15,710 nucleotides of DNA from a virus (lineage: Duplodnaviria; Heunggongvirae; Uroviricota; Caudoviricetes). Below the pieces are notes generated by a model, which was given only the letters and a program-made list of their open reading frames with translations, was not told the origin of the DNA and made no database searches. Positions 1 to 12,512 of the stretch are shown here, one piece after another; the stretch's first letter is position 1, and each line of letters begins with the position of its first letter. The DNA lies in IMG/VR virus record IMGVR_UViG_2778261360_000006. One strand, written 5' to 3'. A program made the position numbers and the translations under genes.

Positions 1-55
1 TTGTGATTATGGCCTCCGGTTATTTCATCGGTCAGATACGCTGGTGGTGAAATGA
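1..55 (+). CDS. 3' end of an upstream lysis gene (probably the endolysin), partial; stop TGA at 53-55 overlaps the Rz ATG as ATGA
   Basis: Frame 2 is open from the window edge to TGA 53-55, and the ATGA overlap with Rz is typical translational coupling. Position immediately before Rz matches the lambdoid lysis cassette order. Too short to identify the family. Confidence 0.3.
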
Positions 56-516
56 ACCGCGTACTGTGCGTGGTCATTATTGCCCTGCTGGTGGCCTGTG
101 GTGCGCTTAGTCTGGGGCTGAATCATTACCGTGATAACGCCATTACCTACAAAGCCCAGCGCGACAAAAATGTCAGAGAACTGAAGCTGGCGAACGCGGC
201 AATTACTGACATGCAGATGCGTCAGCGTGATGTTGCTGCGCTCGATGCAAAATACACGAAGGAGTTAGCTGATGCGAAAGCTGAAAATGATGCTCTGCGT
301 GATGATGTTGCCGCTGGTCGTCGTCGGTTGTACATCAAAGCAGTCTGTCAGTCAGTGCGTGAAGCCACCACCGCCTCCGGCGTGGATAATGCAGCTTCCC
401 CCCGACTGGCAGACACCGCTGAACGGGATTATTTCACCCTCAGAGCGCGACTGATAATAATGCAAAAACAACTTGAAGGGGCACAGCTATACATTCGAGA
501 GCAATGCCTCAGATAA
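52..516 (+). CDS. Rz: Rz i-spanin (inner-membrane spanin subunit)
   Basis: 154-aa ORF. Translation from [17 protein letters not shown] onward is nearly identical to lambda Rz as I recall it; N-terminal hydrophobic transmembrane segment present; Rz1 is embedded in the +1 frame. Confidence 0.95.
272..454 (+). CDS. Rz1: Rz1 o-spanin, outer-membrane lipoprotein, embedded within Rz in another frame
   Basis: 60-aa [27 protein letters not shown]... with lipoprotein signal and lipobox (LVVVG-C), proline-rich PPPPP core; near-identical to remembered lambda Rz1 and located wholly inside Rz. Confidence 0.9.
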
Positions 517-823: not shown

Positions 824-1234
824 TTAGTGCGGAAATATTTGTGTAGTGTTCTGAATGTTCTCAGTAAAGAGTAATGAATTATCAAAGGTATAGTAATACC
901 TTTTGTTTTCGTGGATATTTGTAATCCATCTGAAAACCCCTGCTGTAGCAAGATTTTTCCTGTATTCGTAAAATGATAACTCTCCTGATTTGAATCCTTT
1001 TAAGGTGGCTTCTATAAGGCATTTATTTTTTGAAAATCTTACATTTACAACCTTACCCTGTCCTTTTATTAAAACCGTATTATCGTTTTCAAGAACAAGA
1101 TGAATATTCTCTGTGGCTAAATAGTAAATGTAATGTGAGACATTGTGACGTTTTAGTTCAGAATAAAACCAGTGATAGTTTAAATTATTTCGCACTTTAT
1201 CGAATATTTGTTTAAAAATGGCAACCTGAGCCAT
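824..1234 (-). CDS. Hypothetical protein, 136 aa from the SD-supported start at 1234 (ORF track extends to 1249); AT-rich moron gene, possibly DUF1398 / YbcV-YdfO-like prophage protein
   Basis: Long ORF in an otherwise non-coding, visibly AT-rich stretch. GGAAGG Shine-Dalgarno 7 nt upstream of the ATG at 1234. Family assignment is only by recollection of size and position of ybcV in E. coli DLP12 (between lysis genes and the Nu1 homolog); not verified. Confidence 0.65.
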
Positions 1235-1291
1235 TGTAGTACCTTCCATGTGATATGAGGGGGCGTAGTCTGCACGATTATCTAAATTGCT

Positions 1292-1525
1292 TCAATCTGG
1301 TCTGACCTGTTTTCTGAGCAATTCAGTAATGTCACTCTTTTCTTTGTTTGCTTCAGGCGAAACTCTTTTTTCTGAGCACAGTCTCCGGCGGCAGGCTTCA
1401 ATGACCCAGGCTGAGAAATTCCCGGAACCTTTTTGAACAAGAGCGATGTTAATTTGTTCAATCATTTGGTTAGGAAAGCGGATGTTGCGGGTTGTTGTTC
1501 TGCGGGTTCTGTTCTTCGTTGACAT
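1292..1525 (-). CDS. Small ribbon-helix-helix (CopG/Arc/MetJ-like) DNA-binding protein, 77 aa; upstream gene of the minus-strand cassette
   Basis: Translation has a basic N-terminal tail (TRRTTTR), putative beta-strand NIRFP, helix NQMIEQINIALVQKG, G-S-G-N turn, helix FSAWVIEACRRRL: the canonical RHH layout. Same strand as and 57 nt upstream of the 136-aa gene. Shine-Dalgarno is weak. Confidence 0.55.
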   Translation of the reverse strand: MSTKNRTRRTTTRNIRFPNQMIEQINIALVQKGSGNFSAWVIEACRRRLCSEKRVSPEANKEKSDITELLRKQVRPD

Positions 1526-1736: not shown

Positions 1737-1952
1737 CGCGCGTTTTCACTATTTATGAGATTTTTTGAGGGGGTGGTTGTTGTTTAATTGTTTGGTATAT
1801 CTAATTGATAAGTAAGGTGAAAATAAAATAAATACAACAACCTTACGATGTGTTTTGATGTCGTCAATGCGAAAAATGTCAATGATATCAAATGGTTTTG
1901 CAAAAACACATGGTTGTTGTTTCGCTTTTTATCGATGACTTATGGAGAGGAG
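1737..1952 (+). promoter_or_regulatory. cosB-like region between cosN and Nu1 with three copies of a GGTTGTTGT(TT) motif (1775-1785 +, 1834-1842 inverted, 1912-1922 +) and an A-rich, likely bent segment (1817-1833)
   Basis: Repeats read directly from the sequence. By analogy with lambda cosB (R3-I1-R2-R1 binding sites for gpNu1 and IHF) these are candidate small-terminase binding elements; the motif differs from lambda R sites. Confidence 0.5.
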
Positions 1953-2459
1953 ATGGCCTTTTTATTGAATAAAAGTGATATGGCCTCCTCCATCGGTATC
2001 TCTGTTCAGGCATTTGATAAATGGGGCGTTCCTCCTGTTGAACGTCGGGGGAGGGAAGTTTTATATGACGTTAAAACTGTACTAGAGATAGATCGCGAGC
2101 GGCGACAACACAATCAGAGAACACCTGATGACGGGGGAGAACTGGAGGAAAGGCTGCTTCGGGCCAGAGCTGAACTGACAGAAGAACAGGCTGTAGCTCA
2201 AAAACTTAAAAATCAGGTAACCGAAGGTAAGCTCATCGATTCAGACTTTTGCGTTTTCGCCCTCAGCAAACTGGCGATGGCATTGTCCAGTACGCTTGAT
2301 TCCATTCCGTTATCCATGCAGCGACAGTTCCCGGATTTAACGCCACGTCATATTGACCATCTGAAAACCCTTATTGCAAAGGGCGCAAATCAGTGTGCGC
2401 GGGCAGGGGATAAATTACCGGATTTGCTGGATGAATATATCAGAGCAACAACTGAATAA
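1953..2459 (+). CDS. nu1: Terminase small subunit (gpNu1-like); start taken at ATG 1953 rather than the ORF-track start 1848
   Basis: Translation from MAFLLNKSDMASSIGISVQAFDKWGVPPVERRGREVLYDV aligns with the lambda Nu1 N-terminal winged-HTH (…IRTIQNWQEQGMPV…GNEVLYD…) and C-terminal region (…LSMQRQFPDL…). GGAGAGGAG Shine-Dalgarno precedes 1953; the 1848 extension would cover cosB repeats. Confidence 0.85.
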   Translation: MAFLLNKSDMASSIGISVQAFDKWGVPPVERRGREVLYDVKTVLEIDRERRQHNQRTPDDGGELEERLLRARAELTEEQAVAQKLKNQVTEGKLIDSDFCVFALSKLAMALSSTLDSIPLSMQRQFPDLTPRHIDHLKTLIAKGANQCARAGDKLPDLLDEYIRATTE

Positions 2460-4359
2460 TATGGTGGCCGCCGTTTCGGTTGCGCTGCAGCCTCTGGTCA
2501 GGGTTGTACCGATGACGGCAGTTGAATGGGCTGACCAGTATTATTATCTGCCGAAAGAATCCTCATACGGTGACGGCGAATGGAAAACGCTGCCGTTCCA
2601 GATCGCCATCATGAACAGTATGGGGAATGATCAGATCCGCACTGTTAATCTGATTAAATCTGCCCGTGTTGGCTATACAAAGATGTTGCTGGGAGTCGCC
2701 GGGTATTTTATTGAGCATAAATCCCGAAACAGTCTGCTTTTTCAGCCCACGGATTCTGCCGCTGAAGATTTTATGAAGTCTCACGTGGAGGCGACGATTC
2801 GGGACGTGCCATGCCTGAAAGATCTTTCCCCGTGGCTGGGTCGTAAACATCGTGGTAATACCCTCACGCTGAAACGCTTTTCATCGGGGGGGGGCTTCTG
2901 GTGCCTGGGTGGTGCGGCAGCAAAAAACTACCGTGAAAAATCCGTGGACGTGGTCTGCTATGACGAACTTTCCTCGTTCGAGCCGGATGTCGAAAAAGAG
3001 GGCTCGCCAACCCTGCTGGGGGATAAGCGTATTGAGGGCTCGGTATGGCCAAAATCCATTCGCGGCTCGACGCCTAAAATAAAAGGCTCCTGCCAGATCG
3101 AAAAAGCGGCCAACGAGTCGGCGCATTTCATGCGTTTTTATGTGCCCTGCCCGCACTGTGGGGAGGCGCAGTATCTGAAATTTGGCGATGAGTCCACGCC
3201 TTTTGGCCTTAAATGGGAGAAGGACAGCCCCGAAAGCGTTTTCTACCTCTGTGAACATCATGGCTGCGTGATCCATCAGTCTGAGCTTGACCAGAGCAAC
3301 GGGCGGTGGATCTGTGAAAACACGGGCATGTGGACCCGTGACGGTCTGACGTTTTTCAGCGCTGCGGGTAATGAAATTCCGCCGCCGCGCTCCATCACTT
3401 TCCATATCTGGACGGCGTACAGTCCGTTCACCACCTGGGTACAGATTGTCTATGACTGGCTGGATGCACTGAAAGATCCCAACGGCCTGAAAACCTTTGT
3501 GAACACCACGCTGGGCGAGACCTGGGAAGAGGCCGTGGGCGAAAAAATCGATCACCAGGTACTGATGGATAAGGTTGTGCGTTACACGGCGGCGGTGCCT
3601 GCCCGGGTGGTTTATCTGACGGCGGGCATTGACTCGCAGCGAAACCGTTTTGAGATGTATGTCTGGGGATGGGCTCCGGGAGAGGAAGCCTTTCTGGTGG
3701 ATAAAATCATCATTATGGGGCGTCCCGATGAGGAAGAGACGCTGTTACGTGTGGATGCGGCGATCAACAAAAAATACCGCCATGCAGACGGAACCGAAAT
3801 GACCATTTCCCGTGTCTGCTGGGACACCGGGGGGATCGATGGCGAAATTGTCTATCAGAGGTCAAAAAAACACGGTGTTTTCCGGGTGCTGCCGGTAAAA
3901 GGTGCATCTGTTTATGGCAAGCCGGTGATCACCATGCCAAAAACCCGCAATCAGCGGGGCGTGTATCTGTGCGAAGTGGGGACGGACACCGCAAAAGAAA
4001 TTCTCTATGCCCGTATGAAAGCCGATCCCACGCCTGTGGATGAAGCCACGTCGTATGCCATCCGTTTTCCTGATGATCCGGAGATTTTTTCGCAGACAGA
4101 GGCGCAGCAACTGGTCGCGGAAGAGCTTGTGGAGAAGTGGGAAAAAGGAAAGATGCGTCTGCTGTGGGATAACAAAAAGCGGCGTAACGAAGCGCTGGAC
4201 TGCCTGGTGTATGCCTACGCGGCATTACGTGTGTCCGTGCAACGCTGGCAGCTTGATCTGGCTGTACTGGCAAAATCCCGGGAAGAAGAGACGACCCGGC
4301 CAACCCTTAAAGAACTGGCAGCGAAGCTGTCCGGAGGAGTGAATGGTTACAGTCGCTGA
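2431..4359 (+). CDS. A: Terminase large subunit (gpA-like), 642 aa; start at ATG 2431 (MNISEQQ…), overlapping the Nu1 3' end by 29 nt
   Basis: Strong colinear similarity to lambda gpA throughout (TAVEWAD..YYLPKES, FWCLGG..AKNYREKSVDV, GDKRIEGSVWPKSIRGSTPK, WTAYSPFTTWVQIV, FVNTTLGETWE, KKRRNEALDC). Lambda gpA also begins MNIS…; the ORF-track start 2374 is an in-frame upstream extension. Confidence 0.95.
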   Translation: MNISEQQLNNMVAAVSVALQPLVRVVPMTAVEWADQYYYLPKESSYGDGEWKTLPFQIAIMNSMGNDQIRTVNLIKSARVGYTKMLLGVAGYFIEHKSRNSLLFQPTDSAAEDFMKSHVEATIRDVPCLKDLSPWLGRKHRGNTLTLKRFSSGGGFWCLGGAAAKNYREKSVDVVCYDELSSFEPDVEKEGSPTLLGDKRIEGSVWPKSIRGSTPKIKGSCQIEKAANESAHFMRFYVPCPHCGEAQYLKFGDESTPFGLKWEKDSPESVFYLCEHHGCVIHQSELDQSNGRWICENTGMWTRDGLTFFSAAGNEIPPPRSITFHIWTAYSPFTTWVQIVYDWLDALKDPNGLKTFVNTTLGETWEEAVGEKIDHQVLMDKVVRYTAAVPARVVYLTAGIDSQRNRFEMYVWGWAPGEEAFLVDKIIIMGRPDEEETLLRVDAAINKKYRHADGTEMTISRVCWDTGGIDGEIVYQRSKKHGVFRVLPVKGASVYGKPVITMPKTRNQRGVYLCEVGTDTAKEILYARMKADPTPVDEATSYAIRFPDDPEIFSQTEAQQLVAEELVEKWEKGKMRLLWDNKKRRNEALDCLVYAYAALRVSVQRWQLDLAVLAKSREEETTRPTLKELAAKLSGGVNGYSR

Positions 4360-4549
4360 ACTGCAGGCGCTGCGTCAGGCGCGCCTTGATTTATTAACCG
4401 GTAAACGGGTGGTGTCTGTCCAGAAAGATGGTCGCAGAATTGAATATACGGCGGCTTCTCTGGATGAGCTTAACCGGGCGATCAATGATGCGGAGTCGGT
4501 ACTGGGGACAACCCGGCGTCGCCGTCGTCCGCTGGGAGTGAGGTTATGA
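4343..4549 (+). CDS. W: Head-tail joining / head completion protein gpW-like (68 aa)
   Basis: Size and sequence (…LLTGKRVVSVQKDGRRIEYTAASL…RRRR) resemble lambda gpW; GGAGGAG Shine-Dalgarno; overlaps the A stop and is coupled to B by ATGA at 4546-4549. Confidence 0.9.
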   Translation: MVTVAELQALRQARLDLLTGKRVVSVQKDGRRIEYTAASLDELNRAINDAESVLGTTRRRRRPLGVRL

Positions 4550-6138
4550 AACGAACGCCTGTCCTGATTGATGTGAACGGCGTTCCGCTTCGGGAGAGCC
4601 TCAGCTACAACGGTGGCGGTGCAGGATTTGGCGGGCAAATGGCAGAGTGGTTGCCACCCTCGCAGAGTGCCGATGCGGCCCTGCTGCCCGCGTTGCGTCT
4701 GGGGAATGCCCGTGCAGATGATCTGGTGCGCAATAACGGAATAGCGGCCAATGCGGTGGCCCTGCATAAGGATCACATTGTCGGGCATATGTTTCTGATT
4801 AGCTACCGTCCGAACTGGCGCTGGCTGGGGATGCGGGAGACCGCGGCAAAAAGTTTTGTCGATGAGGTGGAGGCGGCCTGGTCAGAATACGCAGAAGGGA
4901 TGTTTGGTGAGATCGACGTGGAAGGGAAACGCACGTTTACGGAATTTATCCGTGAAGGTGTGGGCGTTCATGCGTTTAACGGCGAAATCTTTGTGCAGCC
5001 GGTCTGGGATACGGAGAGTACGCAACTGTTTCGTACGCGTTTTAAAGCCGTGAGTCCGAAACGGGTGGACACGCCAGGACACGGTATGGGGAACCGTTTT
5101 CTGCGGGCCGGGGTGGAGGTCGATCGATATGGCCGTGCCGTTGCGTACCATATCTGTGAGGATGATTTTCCTCGCTCCGGGAGTGGACGATGGGAACGGA
5201 TCCCGCGTGAACTTCCCACCGGGCGTCCGGCCATGCTGCATATTTTCGAGCCGGTGGAGGACGGGCAGACCCGTGGGGCCAACCAGTTTTACAGCGTCAT
5301 GGAACGGCTGAAGATGCTCGATTCCCTGCAGGCAACACAGCTTCAGTCGGCCATTGTGAAGGCGATGTATGCAGCGACGATTGAAAGTGACCTTGATACC
5401 GAAAAGGCCTTTGAATATATCGCCGGTGCGCCGCAGGGGCAGAAGGATAATCCGCTTATTAATATTCTGGAGAAGTTCTCCAGCTGGTATGACACGAATA
5501 ACGTGACGCTGGGTGGTGTCAAAATTCCGCACCTTTTCCCCGGTGATGATCTGAAACTTCAGACCGCGCAGGATTCAGACAATGGATTTTCGGCGCTTGA
5601 ACAGGCGCTGCTGCGGTATATCGCCGCCGGTCTTGGCGTTTCCTACGAACAGTTGTCCCGTGATTACTCGAAGGTCAGTTACTCAAGTGCCCGCGCATCC
5701 GCCAATGAGTCGTGGCGCTATTTTATGGGGCGGCGAAAATTTATTGCGTCCCGGCTGGCCACGCAGATGTTTTCCTGCTGGCTGGAAGAGGCACTTCTTC
5801 GGGGGATTATTCGTCCGCCACGGGCACGGTTTGATTTTTATCAGGCGCGATCAGCCTGGTCACGGGCTGAGTGGATTGGAGCCGGAAGAATGGCCATTGA
5901 CGGGCTCAAGGAGGTTCAGGAATCAGTGATGCGCATTGAGGCCGGACTGAGCACGTATGAGAAAGAGCTGGCGCTGATGGGCGAGGATTATCAGGACATT
6001 TTCCGCCAGCAGGTCAGGGAATCTGCAGAGCGGGAAAAAGCCGGACTCTCACGTCCGGTGTGGATAGCGCAGGCGTATCAGCAGCAGATAGCGGAGAGTC
6101 GCAGGCCGGAAGAGGAGACAACACCCCGTGAGACGTAA
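4546..6138 (+). CDS. B: Portal protein (gpB-like), 530 aa
   Basis: Length and position match lambda gpB (533 aa); follows W and precedes the head protease as in lambda. Confidence 0.93.
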   Translation: MKRTPVLIDVNGVPLRESLSYNGGGAGFGGQMAEWLPPSQSADAALLPALRLGNARADDLVRNNGIAANAVALHKDHIVGHMFLISYRPNWRWLGMRETAAKSFVDEVEAAWSEYAEGMFGEIDVEGKRTFTEFIREGVGVHAFNGEIFVQPVWDTESTQLFRTRFKAVSPKRVDTPGHGMGNRFLRAGVEVDRYGRAVAYHICEDDFPRSGSGRWERIPRELPTGRPAMLHIFEPVEDGQTRGANQFYSVMERLKMLDSLQATQLQSAIVKAMYAATIESDLDTEKAFEYIAGAPQGQKDNPLINILEKFSSWYDTNNVTLGGVKIPHLFPGDDLKLQTAQDSDNGFSALEQALLRYIAAGLGVSYEQLSRDYSKVSYSSARASANESWRYFMGRRKFIASRLATQMFSCWLEEALLRGIIRPPRARFDFYQARSAWSRAEWIGAGRMAIDGLKEVQESVMRIEAGLSTYEKELALMGEDYQDIFRQQVRESAEREKAGLSRPVWIAQAYQQQIAESRRPEEETTPRET

Positions 6139-7633
6139 TCTTTCACACATTATTGCAGCAGCATTCAATGAACCGCTGCTTCTGGAGCCCGCCTATGCGC
6201 GGGTTTTCTTTTGCGCGCTGGGGCGCGAGATGGGGGCAGCAAGTCTTTCGGTACCGCAACAGCAGGTACAGCTTGATGCTCCCGGGATGCTGGCTGAAAC
6301 GGACGAGTACATGGCCGGAGGTAAACGACCGGCCCGTGTTTACCGGGTGGTGAACGGTATTGCGGTACTGCCGGTGACCGGCACGCTGGTGCACCGGCTG
6401 GGGGGGATGCGGCCATTTTCCGGAATGACTGGCTATGACGGCATTGTCGCCTGTCTTCAGCAGGCAATGGCAGATAGCCTGGTGCGGGGCATACTGCTGG
6501 ACATTGACAGTCCGGGCGGGCAGGCCGCCGGCGCGTTTGACTGCGCTGACATGATTTACCGCCTCCGGCAGCAGAAGCCGGTCTGGGCACTGTGTAATGA
6601 CACGGCCTGTTCTGCGGCCATGCTGCTGGCGTCGGCCTGCTCCCGACGGCTGGTTACCCAGACATCCCGTATCGGCTCCATTGGCGTGATGATGAGCCAT
6701 GTCAGCTATGCCGGTCATCTGGCGCAGGCCGGTGTGGATATCACGCTGATTTATGCCGGGGCGCACAAGGTGGATGGCAATCAGTTTGAAGCGTTGCCGG
6801 CAGAGGTTCGCCAGGATATGCAGCAGCGGATTGATGCGGCGCACCGGATGTTTGCCGAAAAAGTGGCGATGTATACCGGGTTGTCTGTGGATGCGGTCAC
6901 GGGAACAGAGGCCGCCGTTTTTGAAGGTCAGTCCGGCATTGAGGCCGGGCTGGCGGATGAATTAATCAATGCGTCGGATGCCATCAGTGTGATGGCCACG
7001 GCGCTGAACAGTAATGTCAGAGGAGGCACTATGCCGCAATTAACTGCAACGGAAGCCGCCGTGCAGGAAAACCAGCGAGTGATGGGGATCCTGACATGCC
7101 AGGAAGCGAAAGGACGTGAACAGCTTGCCACGATGCTGGCAGGGCAACAGGGCATGAGCGTTGAACAGGCCCGGGCGATTCTGGCCGCGGCGGCACCGCA
7201 GCAGCCGGTGGCATCCGCGCAGAGTGAAGCCGATCGCATTATGGCGTGTGAAGAAGCGAACGGTCGTGAACAACTGGCAGTAACGCTGGCGGCGATGCCG
7301 GAGATGACGGTGGAAAAAGCCCGCCCGATCCTGGCTGCTTCACCGCAGGCGAATGCCGGACCCTCACTCCGTGATCAGATCATGGCACTGGATGAGGCAA
7401 AAGGGGCTGAGGCGCAGGCTGAACAGCTGGCTGCCTGCCCGGGAATGACCGTGGAGAGCGCCCGGGCTGTGCTGGCTGCGGGATCAGGTAAGGCAGAACC
7501 GGTCTCTGCATCCACAACCGCCCTGTTTGAACATTTCATGGCGAACCATTCACCGGCTGCGGTCCAGGGGGGCGTGTCACAGACGTCAGCAGACGGTGAT
7601 GCGGACGTGAAAATGCTCATGGCCATGCCATGA
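6128..7633 (+). CDS. C: Head maturation protease / minor capsid protein gpC-like (S49/ClpP-family peptidase domain plus C-terminal scaffold-like domain), 501 aa; GTG start
   Basis: N-terminal region aligns with lambda gpC (NLPHI…AFNEPL.LEPAYARVFFCAL; GIAVLPV.GTLV; GILLD.D.PGG; VWAL.ND; SRRLVTQT.R.GSIGVM; TLIY.G.HKVDGN). Codon 6128 is GTG, with AGAGGAGA 11 nt upstream. About 60 aa longer than lambda C because of repeated C-terminal segments. Confidence 0.9.
   Translation: MRRNLSHIIAAAFNEPLLLEPAYARVFFCALGREMGAASLSVPQQQVQLDAPGMLAETDEYMAGGKRPARVYRVVNGIAVLPVTGTLVHRLGGMRPFSGMTGYDGIVACLQQAMADSLVRGILLDIDSPGGQAAGAFDCADMIYRLRQQKPVWALCNDTACSAAMLLASACSRRLVTQTSRIGSIGVMMSHVSYAGHLAQAGVDITLIYAGAHKVDGNQFEALPAEVRQDMQQRIDAAHRMFAEKVAMYTGLSVDAVTGTEAAVFEGQSGIEAGLADELINASDAISVMATALNSNVRGGTMPQLTATEAAVQENQRVMGILTCQEAKGREQLATMLAGQQGMSVEQARAILAAAAPQQPVASAQSEADRIMACEEANGREQLAVTLAAMPEMTVEKARPILAASPQANAGPSLRDQIMALDEAKGAEAQAEQLAACPGMTVESARAVLAAGSGKAEPVSASTTALFEHFMANHSPAAVQGGVSQTSADGDADVKMLMAMP
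7031..7633 (+). CDS. nu3: Scaffolding protein Nu3-like, in-frame internal start within C (shares C-terminus with gpC), 200 aa
   Basis: In-frame ATG at 7031 preceded by a perfect AGGAGG (7021-7026). In lambda, Nu3 is translated in the C frame from an internal start and is about 201 aa. Inference by analogy. Confidence 0.55.
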   Translation: MPQLTATEAAVQENQRVMGILTCQEAKGREQLATMLAGQQGMSVEQARAILAAAAPQQPVASAQSEADRIMACEEANGREQLAVTLAAMPEMTVEKARPILAASPQANAGPSLRDQIMALDEAKGAEAQAEQLAACPGMTVESARAVLAAGSGKAEPVSASTTALFEHFMANHSPAAVQGGVSQTSADGDADVKMLMAMP

Positions 7634-7669: not shown

Positions 7670-8017
7670 ATGGTGACGAAAACCATCACTGAACAGCGTG
7701 CGGAAGTACGTATTTTTGCCGGTAATGATCCGGCTCACACCGCCACAGGCAGCAGCGGGATTTCCTCGGCAACACCGGCACTGACACCCCTGATGCTGGA
7801 TGGGGCCACCGGGAAACTGGTGGTCTGGGACGGACAGAAAGCCGGTAGTGCGGTTGGCATACTGGTACTGCCGCTTGAAGGCACAGAGGCGGTGCTGACG
7901 TATTACAAGTCGGGGACCTTTGCGACGGAGGCAATCCGCTGGCCTGAAAGTGTGGATGAACACAAAAAGGCCAACGCCTTTACCGGCAGTGCCCTGAGTC
8001 ACGCGGCGCTGCCGTAA
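7670..8017 (+). CDS. D: Head decoration protein gpD-like (115 aa)
   Basis: Clear similarity to lambda gpD (…DPAHTAT…PA.TPLMLD…KLV.WDG…A.VGIL…YKSGTF…WPE…). Confidence 0.9.
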   Translation: MVTKTITEQRAEVRIFAGNDPAHTATGSSGISSATPALTPLMLDGATGKLVVWDGQKAGSAVGILVLPLEGTEAVLTYYKSGTFATEAIRWPESVDEHKKANAFTGSALSHAALP

Positions 8018-8074: not shown

Positions 8075-9103
8075 ATGGGATTGTTTACGACCCGCCAGTT
8101 ACTCGGTTATACCGAACAAAAAGTGAAATTTCGTGCGCTGTTTCTGGAGCTGTTTTTCCGCCGTACGGTGAATTTCCATACCGAAGAGGTGATGCTGGAC
8201 AAAATTACCGGAAAAACGCCGGTGGCGGCCTATGTCTCCCCGGTTGTTGAAGGAAAAGTGCTGCGTCATCGCGGTGGTGAAACCCGCGTGTTACGTCCGG
8301 GCTACGTCAAGCCGAAACACGAATTTAATTACCAGCAGGCGGTTGAGCGTCTTCCCGGTGAAGATCCGGCTCAACTGAACGACCCGGCCTACCGTCGTCT
8401 GCGTATCATCACCGATAACCTCAAACAGGAAGAGCATGCCATTGTCCAGGTGGAAGAAATGCAGGCGGTGAATGCCGTGCTGTATGGCAAATACACCATG
8501 GAAGGGGATCAGTTTGATACTGTCGAGGTGGATTTTGGACGCTCTGAAGGAAATAACATTGAGCAGGCCGACGGTAAAAAATGGTCTGAGCAGGACCGTG
8601 ATACGTTTGATCCGACGCATGATATTGACCTCTACTGCGATCAGGCCAGCGGTCTTGTGAATATTGCCATTATGGACGGTACTGTCTGGCGTCTGCTGAA
8701 TGGTTTTAAGCTGTTCCGCGAAAAACTGGATACCCGTCGCGGCTCAAATTCACAACTCGAAACGGCAGTGAAAGACCTGGGGGCGGTGGTGTCTTTCAAA
8801 GGGTATTACGGCGATCTGGCCATTGTGGTGGCGAAAACGTCTTATGTGGCAGAGGACGGTACCGAAAAACGTTATCTGCCGGAGGGCACGCTGGTCCTGG
8901 GAAATACGGCTGCAGATGGGATCCGTTGTTACGGTGCCATTCAGGATGCGCAGGCGTTGTCCGAAGGTGTGGTGGCTTCTTCCCGTTACCCGAAACACTG
9001 GCTGACCGTGGGCGATCCGGCCCGTGAATTTACCATGACGCAGTCCGCACCGCTGATGGTGCTGCCGGATCCGGATGAGTTTGTGGTGGTGCAGGTGAAA
9101 TAA
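8075..9103 (+). CDS. E: Major capsid protein gpE-like (342 aa)
   Basis: Colinear similarity to lambda gpE (341 aa): YVSP.V.G.V…PGYVKPKHE…DPAYRR.RII…VEEMQAV.AVL.GKYTM…KLDTRRGSNS.LETAVKDLG…GDPAREFTM.QSAPLM.L.DPDEFV.VQ. AAAGGAA Shine-Dalgarno. Confidence 0.95.
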   Translation: MGLFTTRQLLGYTEQKVKFRALFLELFFRRTVNFHTEEVMLDKITGKTPVAAYVSPVVEGKVLRHRGGETRVLRPGYVKPKHEFNYQQAVERLPGEDPAQLNDPAYRRLRIITDNLKQEEHAIVQVEEMQAVNAVLYGKYTMEGDQFDTVEVDFGRSEGNNIEQADGKKWSEQDRDTFDPTHDIDLYCDQASGLVNIAIMDGTVWRLLNGFKLFREKLDTRRGSNSQLETAVKDLGAVVSFKGYYGDLAIVVAKTSYVAEDGTEKRYLPEGTLVLGNTAADGIRCYGAIQDAQALSEGVVASSRYPKHWLTVGDPAREFTMTQSAPLMVLPDPDEFVVVQVK

Positions 9104-11640: not shown

Positions 11641-12072
11641 ATGTTTCTGAAAACAGAACAATTTGAATATAACGGTGTGTCCGTCACGCTTTCCGAATTG
11701 TCTGCGCTGCAGCGTATTGAGCATCTTGCCCTCCTGAAACGGCGTGCAGAACAGGCAGAATCCAGCGGCAACCTGCAGGTAAGCGTGGAAGATCTCGTCA
11801 GAACCGGCGCGTTTCTGGTGGCGATGTCCCTGTGGCATAACCATCCGCAGAAAACGGGGTCACCGTCAATGAATGAGGCCGTGATGCAGATTGAGCAGGA
11901 AGTCCTGACCACCTGGCCTGCGGATGCCATTGCCCGGGCGGAAGATGTGGTGTTGCGTCTGTCCGGGATGAGCGGGCCTGTTCATGTGGATACGGATATT
12001 ACCGAAGTGGCGAAAAATAACGCGCTGACTGATGATGATTTTTCTGCGGGAAAGTCTTCGACGGCGAGCTGA
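11641..12072 (+). CDS. G: Tail assembly chaperone gpG-like (143 aa)
   Basis: Position and size (lambda G is 140 aa); GGAGG Shine-Dalgarno; contains a GGGAAAG slippery heptamer near its 3' end. Confidence 0.9.
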   Translation: MFLKTEQFEYNGVSVTLSELSALQRIEHLALLKRRAEQAESSGNLQVSVEDLVRTGAFLVAMSLWHNHPQKTGSPSMNEAVMQIEQEVLTTWPADAIARAEDVVLRLSGMSGPVHVDTDITEVAKNNALTDDDFSAGKSSTAS

Positions 12073-12512
12073 ATTTTGCCCTCAGACTGGCGCGTGAGAT
12101 GGGGAGGCCTGACTGGCGCGCCATGCTTGCCGGGATGACATCCACCGAATATGCCGACTGGCGACATTTTTACCGCATGCATTATTTTCACGATACCCAG
12201 CTGGATATGCATTTTTCCGGGCTGACGTACGCTGTACTCAGCCTGTTTTTTTGCGATCCGGATATGCATCCCTCTGATTTCAGTCTGCTTGTCCCCCGGC
12301 ATGAGGAAGAGCAGGTGGAGAGGCCGGATGAGGACAAAATGCTGATGCAGAAAGCGGCAGGACTTGCCGGAGGCGTCCGGTTCGGTGGGGACGGAGGGCG
12401 CGATATTTTATCGTCTGCGGATGTGGCGGATGTCATGGTGGATGATGTCGCATTAATGATGGCTTCAGCGGGGATTTCCGGAGGTGTGAGATATGTCCCA
12501 GCCGGTTGGTGA
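11641..12512 (+). CDS. T: Tail assembly chaperone G-T fusion produced by -1 frameshift at 12048-12054 (T frame 12054-12512)
   Basis: The ORF listed at 12099-12512 is in the -1 frame relative to G and has an upstream stop at 12036-12038, so the slippery site lies inside the 12039-12072 overlap; matches the conserved lambda G/GT arrangement before the tape measure gene. Confidence 0.75.
12048..12054 (+). promoter_or_regulatory. Programmed -1 ribosomal frameshift slippery site G GGA AAG (G to G-T fusion)
   Basis: Heptamer GGGAAAG lies in the G frame as G.GGA.AAG (…SAGKSS), 18 nt before the G stop. The -1 frame is open from 12039 and continues to 12512. Confidence 0.75.

What the first reader, a model, noticed from the sequence alone, without database searches (positions are those of the whole stretch)
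7079..7487. Triplicated ~40-aa helical segment in the C-terminal (scaffold / Nu3) part of gpC
The C-terminal region contains three consecutive related segments: IMGILTCQEAKGREQLATMLAGQQGMSVEQARAILAAAAPQ, IMACEEANGREQLAVTLAAMPEMTVEKARPILAASPQ, and IMALDEAKGAEAQAEQLAACPGMTVESARAVLAAGSG. Lambda gpC/Nu3, as I recall, has a single such segment (IMGILNCEEAHGREEQARVLAETPGMTVKTARRILAAAPQ), which accounts for this C being ~60 aa longer. Internal duplication of the scaffold domain could alter scaffold stoichiometry or capsid-binding valency; the repeats are diverged at the DNA level, so this is not a recent or assembly-artefact duplication.
Basis: partly seen in the sequence, partly recalled or inferred. 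Interest (0 to 1): 0.45.

Follow-up and report, generated by a model that had tools for sequence, protein, structure and literature searches.

The report
Known triple repeat in phage-21-type scaffold
The head protease/scaffold gene of this lambda-like prophage does carry three copies of a ~40-residue helical unit that lambda has once, but these repeats are already annotated in phage 21 ("Tri boxes") and occur in about a third of complete E. coli genomes, so the finding is real but ordinary.

Summary
The gpC-like ORF (6128-7633, 501 aa) has three tandem ~40-aa units: nt 7079-7201, 7235-7348 and 7376-7489. They are 49-61% identical pairwise, with Smith-Waterman z of 12-15 against shuffles. Lambda C has one unit.

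It is not new. The Nu3 part is 97% identical to phage 21 gp6. GenBank M81255 annotates these segments there as "Tri1 box", "Tri box" and "Tri3 box" ("function unknown"), with the same internal ribosome-binding site and start. This 3-copy allele is in 1863 of 5426 complete E. coli genomes. The lambda 1-copy type is in 3201 and a 4-copy type in 105.

Results beyond the record:
- The unit is predicted to be a compact three-helix domain (pLDDT 91).
- No Pfam or NCBIfam model covers it.
- It lies near the C-terminus of S49 prohead proteases and Nu3-like scaffolds in 1258 protein clusters, nearly always as one copy.
- Copy number runs from 1 to 4 through repeated, independent tandem duplications and deletions.
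- The three-copy state is old (units are position-orthologous in Salmonella Gifsy-type genes), and R2 and R3 are under purifying selection.

The function is inferred, not shown: a protein-interaction module for procapsid assembly shared by scaffold and protease, trivalent here. Already known; low interest.

The parts
6128..7633 (+). gpC homologue (phage 21 gene 5 type): S49 prohead protease with a C-terminal scaffold extension, 501 aa, GTG start
   Evidence: ORF list and translation. 53% identical to lambda C. Same length as phage 21 gene 5 (1506 nt). It sits between the portal gene (4546-6138) and the D-like decoration gene (7670-8017).
6563..7006 (+). Peptidase_S49 domain (aa 146-293)
   Evidence: Pfam PF01343, E 1.3e-35, 123 bits against a cut-off of 24.9.
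7020..7026 (+). Shine-Dalgarno sequence GAGGAGG for the nested scaffold gene
   Evidence: Read directly from the sequence. It lies 4 nt upstream of ATG 7031. It is homologous in position to lambda's GGAGG before Met-309 and to the RBS annotated for phage 21 gene 6.
7031..7633 (+). Nested in-frame Nu3 / phage 21 gene 6 homologue (scaffolding protein): 200 aa, 20.5 kDa, pI 4.6
   Evidence: 97% amino-acid identity, ungapped, to the phage 21 gp6 CDS annotated in M81255. Phage 21 genome OL657228 annotates a nested 'scaffolding protein' here. Expression in this prophage is inferred, not shown.
7079..7201 (+). Repeat unit R1 (aa 318-358); corresponds to phage 21 'Tri1 box' (maps to 7098-7201)
   Evidence: HMM domain 319-358, 69.9 bits. 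Closest to lambda's single unit. AF2 model of aa 302-363 has pLDDT 91 and three helices.
7202..7234 (+). Linker 1 (QPVASAQSEAD), predicted disordered
   Evidence: pLDDT below 50 at Nu3 residues 58-63. pN/pS 0.65, the most relaxed segment.
7235..7348 (+). Repeat unit R2 (aa 370-407); corresponds to phage 21 'Tri box' (maps to 7238-7348)
   Evidence: HMM domain 369-408, 72.0 bits. Best match is unit 2 of Salmonella homologues. pN/pS 0.37.
7349..7375 (+). Linker 2 (ANAGPSLRD)
   Evidence: Lower pLDDT between the helical units.
7376..7489 (+). Repeat unit R3 (aa 417-454); corresponds to phage 21 'Tri3 box' (maps to 7379-7492). The conserved GRE motif is changed to GAE.
   Evidence: HMM domain 416-453, 63.1 bits. 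Best match is unit 3 of Salmonella homologues. pN/pS 0.25.
7490..7630 (+). C-terminal tail (~46 aa) with conserved hydrophobic motifs (ALFEHFM... KMLMAMP), homologous to the lambda tail
   Evidence: Alignment A3. In single-copy relatives the unit ends a median of 47.5 aa before the C-terminus.

Best explanation
The window holds the head module of a phage-21-type (Jouyvirus-like) lambdoid prophage.

Gene arrangement:
- The region lies in the shared 3' part of two nested in-frame genes. One encodes the S49 prohead protease (gpC / phage 21 gp5). The other encodes the scaffolding protein (Nu3 / phage 21 gp6), which starts at ATG 7031 behind its own Shine-Dalgarno sequence.
- This shared part encodes three tandem copies of a ~40-residue unit, joined by short flexible linkers and followed by a ~46-residue conserved tail.
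- Each unit is predicted to fold as a small three-helix domain.

History:
- Lambda and most relatives have one unit. This lineage gained two more by tandem duplication long ago, and all three have been kept.

Inferred mechanism:
- The unit is the folded protein-interaction module of an otherwise flexible scaffold. It mediates contacts with the major capsid protein and/or with other scaffold molecules during procapsid assembly.
- Because protease and scaffold share it, the protease is co-incorporated into the procapsid.
- Three units would make each scaffold and protease molecule trivalent.
- After assembly the protease removes the scaffold.

Shown: the repeat, its homology, the nested start signal, the predicted fold, the distribution and the conservation. 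Inferred: the binding partner, any valency effect and the expression of the nested gene in this prophage.
For: - Repeat statistics.
- One copy in lambda.
- 97% identity to phage 21 gp6, where the RBS, the nested CDS and the three 'Tri' boxes are annotated.
- S49 domain and lambda-like gene order (Nu1, A, W, B, C, D, E, FI, FII, Z, U...).
- Shine-Dalgarno sequence and ATG homologous to lambda Met-309, giving a 131-aa, 13.4-kDa lambda Nu3.
- AF2: unit 1 pLDDT 91.2 and pTM 0.74 with three helices. The whole Nu3 model shows three similar helical units, low-confidence linkers and pTM 0.27.
- The unit sits near the C-terminus of ~430-550-aa S49 proteases and in ~110-200-aa Nu3-like proteins: 1258 clusters, and 134 of the 144 newly returned top-scoring representatives are single-copy.
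- BFVD structural matches are only to other S49 prohead proteases.
- Positional orthology with Salmonella units.
- pN/pS 0.25-0.37 for R2 and R3.
- 73 of 80 E. coli prophage loci keep all three units.
- Yeast two-hybrid Nu3-E, Nu3-Nu3 and Nu3-C interactions in lambda: PMC3224144.
Against: - No experiment or structure assigns a partner to the unit. The conserved C-terminal tail, rather than the unit, could be the capsid-binding element, as in HK97 protease and P22 scaffold (from my own knowledge of those systems).
- Lambda assembles a capsid of the same size class with a single unit (E proteins 62% identical, 341 vs 342 aa), so three units are not needed in principle.
- Natural alleles with two units, or with a 19-aa deletion inside R2, exist.
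- R3 has lost the near-invariant Arg of the AKGRE motif.
- Lambda Nu3 has been described as intrinsically disordered (title of Medina et al. 2011, seen in the reference list; the paper could not be read). That sits uneasily with a confidently predicted fold.
Confidence: 0.75

Rival explanations
1. Neutral, tolerated expansion. The extra units are redundant length in a flexible scaffold. They were produced by unequal crossing-over and persist without changing assembly.
For: - Lambda works with one unit.
- Copy number ranges from 1 to 4 among close relatives: 2-copy alleles P0018 and P0022, and 4-copy P0039.
- 5 of 80 loci carry a 19-aa in-frame deletion in R2.
- R3 lacks the conserved Arg.
Against: - R2 and R3 have pN/pS of 0.37 and 0.25.
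- Each unit is most similar to the same-position unit in Salmonella homologues, so all three have been kept separately since those lineages split.
- 73 of 80 loci, and 1863 genomes, keep the full three-unit allele.
Confidence: 0.2
2. The unit is a self-association (oligomerisation) or portal-binding domain rather than a capsid-protein-binding domain. The C-terminal tail does the capsid targeting.
For: - Nu3-Nu3 interaction and dimerisation are reported for lambda, and Nu3 is required for portal incorporation (PMC3224144).
- The tail is conserved in length and motif across relatives.
- In other phages the extreme C-terminus of the scaffold or protease binds the shell (my own knowledge).
Against: Nothing here tells the partners apart. 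Nu3-E interaction is also reported.
Confidence: 0.35
3. The units are helix-hairpin-helix-like nucleic-acid-binding motifs.
For: A weak Pfam HHH hit at aa 427-450 (E 0.098, 13 bits against a cut-off of 24). NusA C-terminal repeat chains appear at E about 1.
Against: - Every hit is below threshold.
- The protein is acidic (pI 4.6).
- There is no GhG hairpin.
- Scaffolds leave the shell before DNA enters (established knowledge).
Confidence: 0.02
4. Chance similarity in an alanine-rich, low-complexity region, or an assembly artefact.
For: The region is 21-29% alanine. Tandem Repeats Finder finds nothing at the DNA level.
Against: - Composition-preserving shuffles never reach the observed scores.
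- The same three units occur in independently sequenced phages (21, ev017, 4A7, D2, Gifsy-1) and in 1863 genomes.
- The units are too diverged at the DNA level to be an artefact.
Confidence: 0.01

Closest known systems
Phage 21 genes 5 and 6 (GenBank M81255, 'Bacteriophage 21 head gene operon'; genome OL657228), with annotated Tri1/Tri/Tri3 boxes
   Same: - 97% amino-acid identity over the 200-aa Nu3 part, ungapped.
- Same ORF length (1506 nt).
- Same internal RBS and start.
- The three annotated repeat_regions map onto window 7098-7201, 7238-7348 and 7379-7492.
   Different: Only 6-7 amino-acid substitutions. This is the same feature in a sister prophage.
Lambda C / Nu3 (NC_001416, 4418-5737; Nu3 from Met-309)
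   Same: - S49 protease with a nested in-frame scaffold gene.
- Homologous Shine-Dalgarno sequence and start.
- Homologous unit (lambda aa 361-401; 58% identical to R1 over 59 aligned residues) and homologous tail.
   Different: - Lambda has one unit, not three.
- Lambda has a longer (52 vs 16 aa) Ala/Thr/acidic segment before the unit.
- Nu3 is 131 aa in lambda and 200 aa here.
Salmonella Gifsy-1-type gpC homologues (NC_010392; P0029, P0033, P0034, P0036)
   Same: Three units, each most similar to the same-position unit of the window protein. Overall identity is 56-63%.
   Different: Unit 3 keeps the canonical KGRE motif. The tail is longer.
E. coli 4-copy allele (P0039, locus L122)
   Same: Same gene, same unit, same lambda-like head module.
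   Different: - Four units.
- Units 2-4 are 80-88% identical to each other.
- The DNA forms a clean 138-nt tandem repeat (3.7 copies, 77% matches), indicating a separate and more recent amplification.
- Present in 105 of 5426 genomes.
P22 gp8 scaffolding protein C-terminal helix-turn-helix coat-binding domain
   Same: Works like it only by analogy: a small helical module near the C-terminus of a scaffold, with conserved basic residues (my own knowledge of P22).
   Different: - No sequence similarity was found in the PDB searches.
- The unit here has three helices, and it is followed by a ~46-aa tail rather than being terminal.

Membership tests
Lambda-type nested protease/scaffold gene pair (C/Nu3) | N-terminal S49 (SppA-like) serine peptidase domain | tested here: met
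   Pfam PF01343, E 1.3e-35, above the cut-off. PHROG 53 'head maturation protease', E 4e-228.
Lambda-type nested protease/scaffold gene pair (C/Nu3) | Position in the head operon between the portal gene and the decoration and major capsid genes | tested here: met
   The order B (4546-6138), C (6128-7633), D (7670-8017), E (8075-9103) was identified by BLASTP to lambda and by Pfam.
Lambda-type nested protease/scaffold gene pair (C/Nu3) | In-frame internal translation start with its own ribosome-binding site, giving a scaffold protein that shares the protease's C-terminus | tested here: met
   GAGGAGG at 7020-7026 and ATG at 7031, homologous to lambda's GGAGG and Met-309 and to the annotated RBS and CDS of phage 21 gene 6. 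Actual translation cannot be tested with these tools.
Lambda-type nested protease/scaffold gene pair (C/Nu3) | C-terminal region homologous to lambda Nu3 (unit plus tail) | tested here: met
   BLASTP of R1 to the lambda unit, E 6e-18. HMM domains. PHROG 8399 'head scaffolding protein' with 3 stretches.
Phage 21 gp6 'Tri box' triplication | Three tandem repeat segments at the positions annotated in M81255 | tested here: met
   An ungapped 200-aa alignment at 97% identity maps the Tri boxes to window 7098-7201, 7238-7348 and 7379-7492, coinciding with R1-R3.
Scaffolding protein (functional class) | Required for procapsid assembly, present in procapsids, removed before DNA packaging | not testable with these tools
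   Known for lambda Nu3 from the literature (PMC3224144, PMC10695390). Not tested for this prophage.
Helix-hairpin-helix (HhH) motif | Match to Pfam PF00633 above the gathering score | tested here: not met
   13 bits against a cut-off of 24, E 0.098.
P22-type scaffold coat-binding helix-turn-helix domain | Sequence or fold similarity to the solved P22 gp8 C-terminal domain | tested here: not met

The most novel reading that the evidence does not exclude
The ~40-residue unit may be an unrecognised, autonomously folding three-helix domain family.
- No Pfam or NCBIfam model covers it.
- It would be the conserved core of S49-protease-linked scaffolds across many bacterial phyla.
- Its copy number (1-4) would be repeatedly reset by unequal crossing-over and would tune the valency of scaffold and protease contacts in the procapsid.

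This would add a folded domain to the picture of lambda Nu3 as intrinsically disordered. It would also make phage 21 versus lambda a natural experiment on scaffold valency.
Probability: 0.3. Interest if true: 0.35.

Novelty: already known. Interest (0 to 1): 0.12.

Why it matters
As a discovery it matters little. The triplication has been annotated in the phage 21 record, is carried by isolated phages (21, ev017, 4A7, D2, Gifsy-1), and is present in a third of complete E. coli genomes.

Its residual value is as a handle on how lambda-type scaffolds work. The unit's function is still labelled 'unknown' in the record, no domain database models it, and nature offers 1-, 2-, 3- and 4-copy alleles in otherwise similar head modules for comparison.

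Tried and rejected
- DNA-level repeat finders (repeat finder, Tandem Repeats Finder) found only 12-15-nt fragments and no array. The repeat is visible only at the protein level.
- BLASTP of the C-terminal region against itself returned only the identity hit. Segment-against-segment comparison was needed.
- The first homologue search, with the 200-aa Nu3 part, returned mostly truncated 'partial' proteins. It was useful for variants but not for an unbiased copy-number census.
- The IMG/VR scan with the unit profile was saturated by 80 E. coli loci with an identical R1. It is therefore useful only for within-lineage polymorphism, and it biases the R1 pN/pS.
- PDB sequence searches hit de novo designed tandem-repeat proteins (E 1e-6, composed of 'GVSLEQA..IL' designs) and a 24-residue unidentified mitoribosome chain, 9hqv_Un, containing AKGREALAE. 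Both were judged irrelevant.
- The HhH reading was rejected (see rivals).
- Medina et al. 2010 and 2011 on gpC and gpNu3 could not be opened. No citation of the phage 21 head-gene paper was found. A gpC/gpE literature search returned GPCR papers.
- I checked whether lambda's tail hides a degenerate second unit. The HMM finds none, and the segment aligns to the window's tail instead.

Full report
**What is there**

The window is the late-gene region of a lambdoid prophage. The genes, in order, are:
- Rz/Rz1
- two small minus-strand genes
- Nu1, A, W, B, C, D, E, FI, FII, Z, U, V, G/T, H, M

They were identified by ORFs, by BLASTP to lambda at 29-82% identity and by Pfam. The finding lies in the 501-aa ORF 6128-7633. 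That ORF has a Peptidase_S49 domain at aa 146-293 (E 1.3e-35) and matches PHROG 53 'head maturation protease' end to end. It is the gpC homologue.

**Check of the observation**

The only slip is that the first residue is Val, not Ile.

The units and their support:
- Positions: R1 aa 318-358 (nt 7079-7201), R2 aa 370-407 (7235-7348), R3 aa 417-454 (7376-7489).
- Pairwise identity is 49-61%, with BLASTP E-values of 1e-10 to 4e-13.
- Smith-Waterman scores exceed all 2000 composition-preserving shuffles (z 11.8-15.3).
- A profile of the unit finds three domains here and one in lambda C.

At the DNA level the units are 60-67% identical, with third-position identity of only 35-44%, and Tandem Repeats Finder does not detect them. 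The duplication is therefore old and not an artefact.

The 62-aa excess over lambda C is a net figure. Two extra units with linkers add 97 aa. A shorter pre-unit segment removes 36 aa, the protease part is 7 aa shorter, and the tail is 8 aa longer.

**The nested scaffold gene**

A strong Shine-Dalgarno sequence (GAGGAGG, 7020-7026) lies 4 nt before ATG 7031. This is the position homologous to lambda's GGAGG and Met-309, which yields the 131-aa, 13.4-kDa Nu3. The nested product here would be 200 aa, 20.5 kDa, with pI 4.6. All three units lie in the part shared by protease and scaffold.

**It is already known**

A tblastn search of the phage collection with the Nu3 part hit phage 21 at 96.5% identity. 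GenBank M81255 ('Bacteriophage 21 head gene operon') annotates the following:
- gene 5
- a nested gene 6 with its own RBS

The alignment to the window is ungapped over 200 aa. The boxes therefore map to window 7098-7201, 7238-7348 and 7379-7492, which are R1, R2 and R3. The complete phage 21 genome (OL657228) also annotates the nested scaffolding protein. From memory, the underlying paper is Smith & Feiss, Gene 1993. I could not find or read it.

Other isolated phages with the same three-unit gene include ev017, 4A7, D2, 1W, 3W and the PhiR phages, with Gifsy-1 at 56% identity.

**How common it is**

| Allele | Complete E. coli genomes holding it at >=80% coverage (of 5426) |
|---|---|
| Three-unit Nu3 DNA (this type) | 1863 |
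| Lambda-type single unit | 3201 |
| Four-unit | 105 |

**What the tools add**

1. **Distribution.**
   - A 40-position profile of the unit, searched against 1.84 billion representative proteins, found 1258 proteins at E <= 1e-3.
   - Of the 144 newly returned top-scoring representatives, 134 have one unit, 8 have two and 2 have three. The unit lies either near the C-terminus of ~430-550-aa proteins or in ~110-200-aa proteins, and it ends a median of 47.5 aa before the C-terminus.
   - Among 38 loci from species-representative genomes, 33 have one unit. These come from Alpha- and Gammaproteobacteria, Acidobacteria, Leptospira, Chryseobacterium and others. One has two (Buttiauxella) and four have three (E. 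coli, Shigella, E. albertii, Providencia).

2. **Dynamics.**
   - Close relatives include two-unit alleles whose junctions fall inside homologous helices (P0022) or at a short AS repeat (P0018).
   - A 19-aa in-frame deletion within R2 occurs in 5 of 80 E. coli prophage loci.
   - In the four-unit allele, units 2-4 are each other's best matches (80-88%), and the DNA is a clean 138-nt tandem repeat.
   - By contrast, each window unit is most similar to the same-position unit of Salmonella homologues: 0.82, 0.72 and 0.63.
   - The triplication is therefore old, and amplification has happened independently several times.

3. **Selection.**
   - Among 52 distinct three-unit alleles, pN/pS is 0.37 for R2, 0.25 for R3, 0.28 for the tail and 0.65 for linker 1.
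   - The R1 value (0.02) is biased, because the loci were chosen for an identical R1.

4. **Structure.**
   - With a 50-sequence alignment, AF2 predicts Nu3 residues 1-62 (pre-unit helix plus R1) at pLDDT 91.2 and pTM 0.74, with helices at 6-22, 30-37 and 44-53.
   - The full 200-aa model shows three similar helical units (pLDDT 75-80), low-confidence linkers and no fixed mutual arrangement (pTM 0.27).
   - BFVD matches only the C-termini of other S49 prohead proteases.
   - No solved structure matches by sequence.
   - No Pfam or NCBIfam model covers the unit. PHROGs 8399, 8940 and 17040 match it three or four times.

**Mechanism**

Shown: the shared C-terminal region of protease and scaffold carries three conserved, probably folded helical units on flexible linkers, followed by a conserved tail.

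Inferred:
- The unit is a protein-interaction module used in procapsid assembly.
- Sharing it is how the protease is brought into the shell together with the scaffold.
- Three copies make both proteins trivalent.

For lambda, yeast two-hybrid data report Nu3-E, Nu3-Nu3 and Nu3-C interactions, and Nu3 is needed for portal incorporation (PMC3224144). These data do not say which part of Nu3 binds what. The tail could be the capsid-binding element and the unit an oligomerisation element. I cannot separate these readings.

Lambda builds a capsid from a 62%-identical, same-length E protein with a single unit. Copy number is therefore not tied to capsid size. A largely neutral expansion cannot be excluded, although the selection and orthology data argue against it. 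A helix-hairpin-helix or DNA-binding reading is rejected: the scores are sub-threshold and the protein is acidic.

**Verdict**

The feature is a long-annotated property of phage 21-type head genes and is common in E. coli, so its novelty is 'already known' and its interest is low.

The modest new points are the predicted fold of the unit, the lack of a domain-database model for it, its wide single-copy distribution, and the recurrent 1-4 copy-number changes.

Noticed in passing
window 52-516 (+) and 272-454 (+): Rz spanin gene (Pfam Phage_lysis, E 5.5e-52) with a 60-aa ORF nested in another frame. The nested ORF starts [20 protein letters not shown]..., a lipoprotein-type signal with a Pro-rich body. 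This is the classic embedded Rz1 o-spanin.
   Followed up: partly
window 824-1249 (-) and 1292-1525 (-): Two minus-strand genes (DUF1398, E 3e-43; DUF3950, E 2e-20) lie between the lysis genes and the terminase genes, opposite in orientation to the late operon. They look like moron-type insertions and are of unknown function. The cos region presumably lies between 1525 and about 1960.
   Followed up: partly
window 12048-12054 (+): GGGAAAG slippery heptamer lies 18 nt before the stop of the G-like tail assembly chaperone (11641-12072), with the T-like ORF (12099-12512) downstream. This is the conserved lambda G-T -1 frameshift arrangement.
   Followed up: partly
window 1848-2459 (+) and 2374-4359 (+): The mechanical ORFs for Nu1 (203 aa) and A (TTG start, 661 aa) are longer than their lambda counterparts, and alignment to lambda begins at residues 40 and 20. 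The true starts are probably downstream, near 1965 and 2431.
   Followed up: no
locus L122 410-918 (E. coli GCA_032727965.1 contig): A four-unit allele of the same gene forms a clean 138-nt tandem DNA repeat (3.7 copies, 77% matches). It is present in 105 of 5426 complete E. coli genomes and represents an independent, more recent amplification of the unit.
   Followed up: yes
loci L047, L052, L061, L063, L064 (IMG/VR E. coli prophage contigs), ORF 1517-2998: A recurrent allele has a 19-aa in-frame deletion that removes helices 2-3 of unit R2 (protein cluster P0010 has 53 member sequences). Whether these prophages still make viable heads is unknown.
   Followed up: partly
locus L007 1406-3022 (Providencia alcalifaciens DSM 30120) and L031 1484-2890 (Buttiauxella ferragutiae): Providencia carries a three-unit gpC homologue (539-aa stop-to-stop frame) and Buttiauxella a two-unit one. 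Among the 38 species-representative loci sampled, multi-copy alleles were found only in Enterobacterales.
   Followed up: partly
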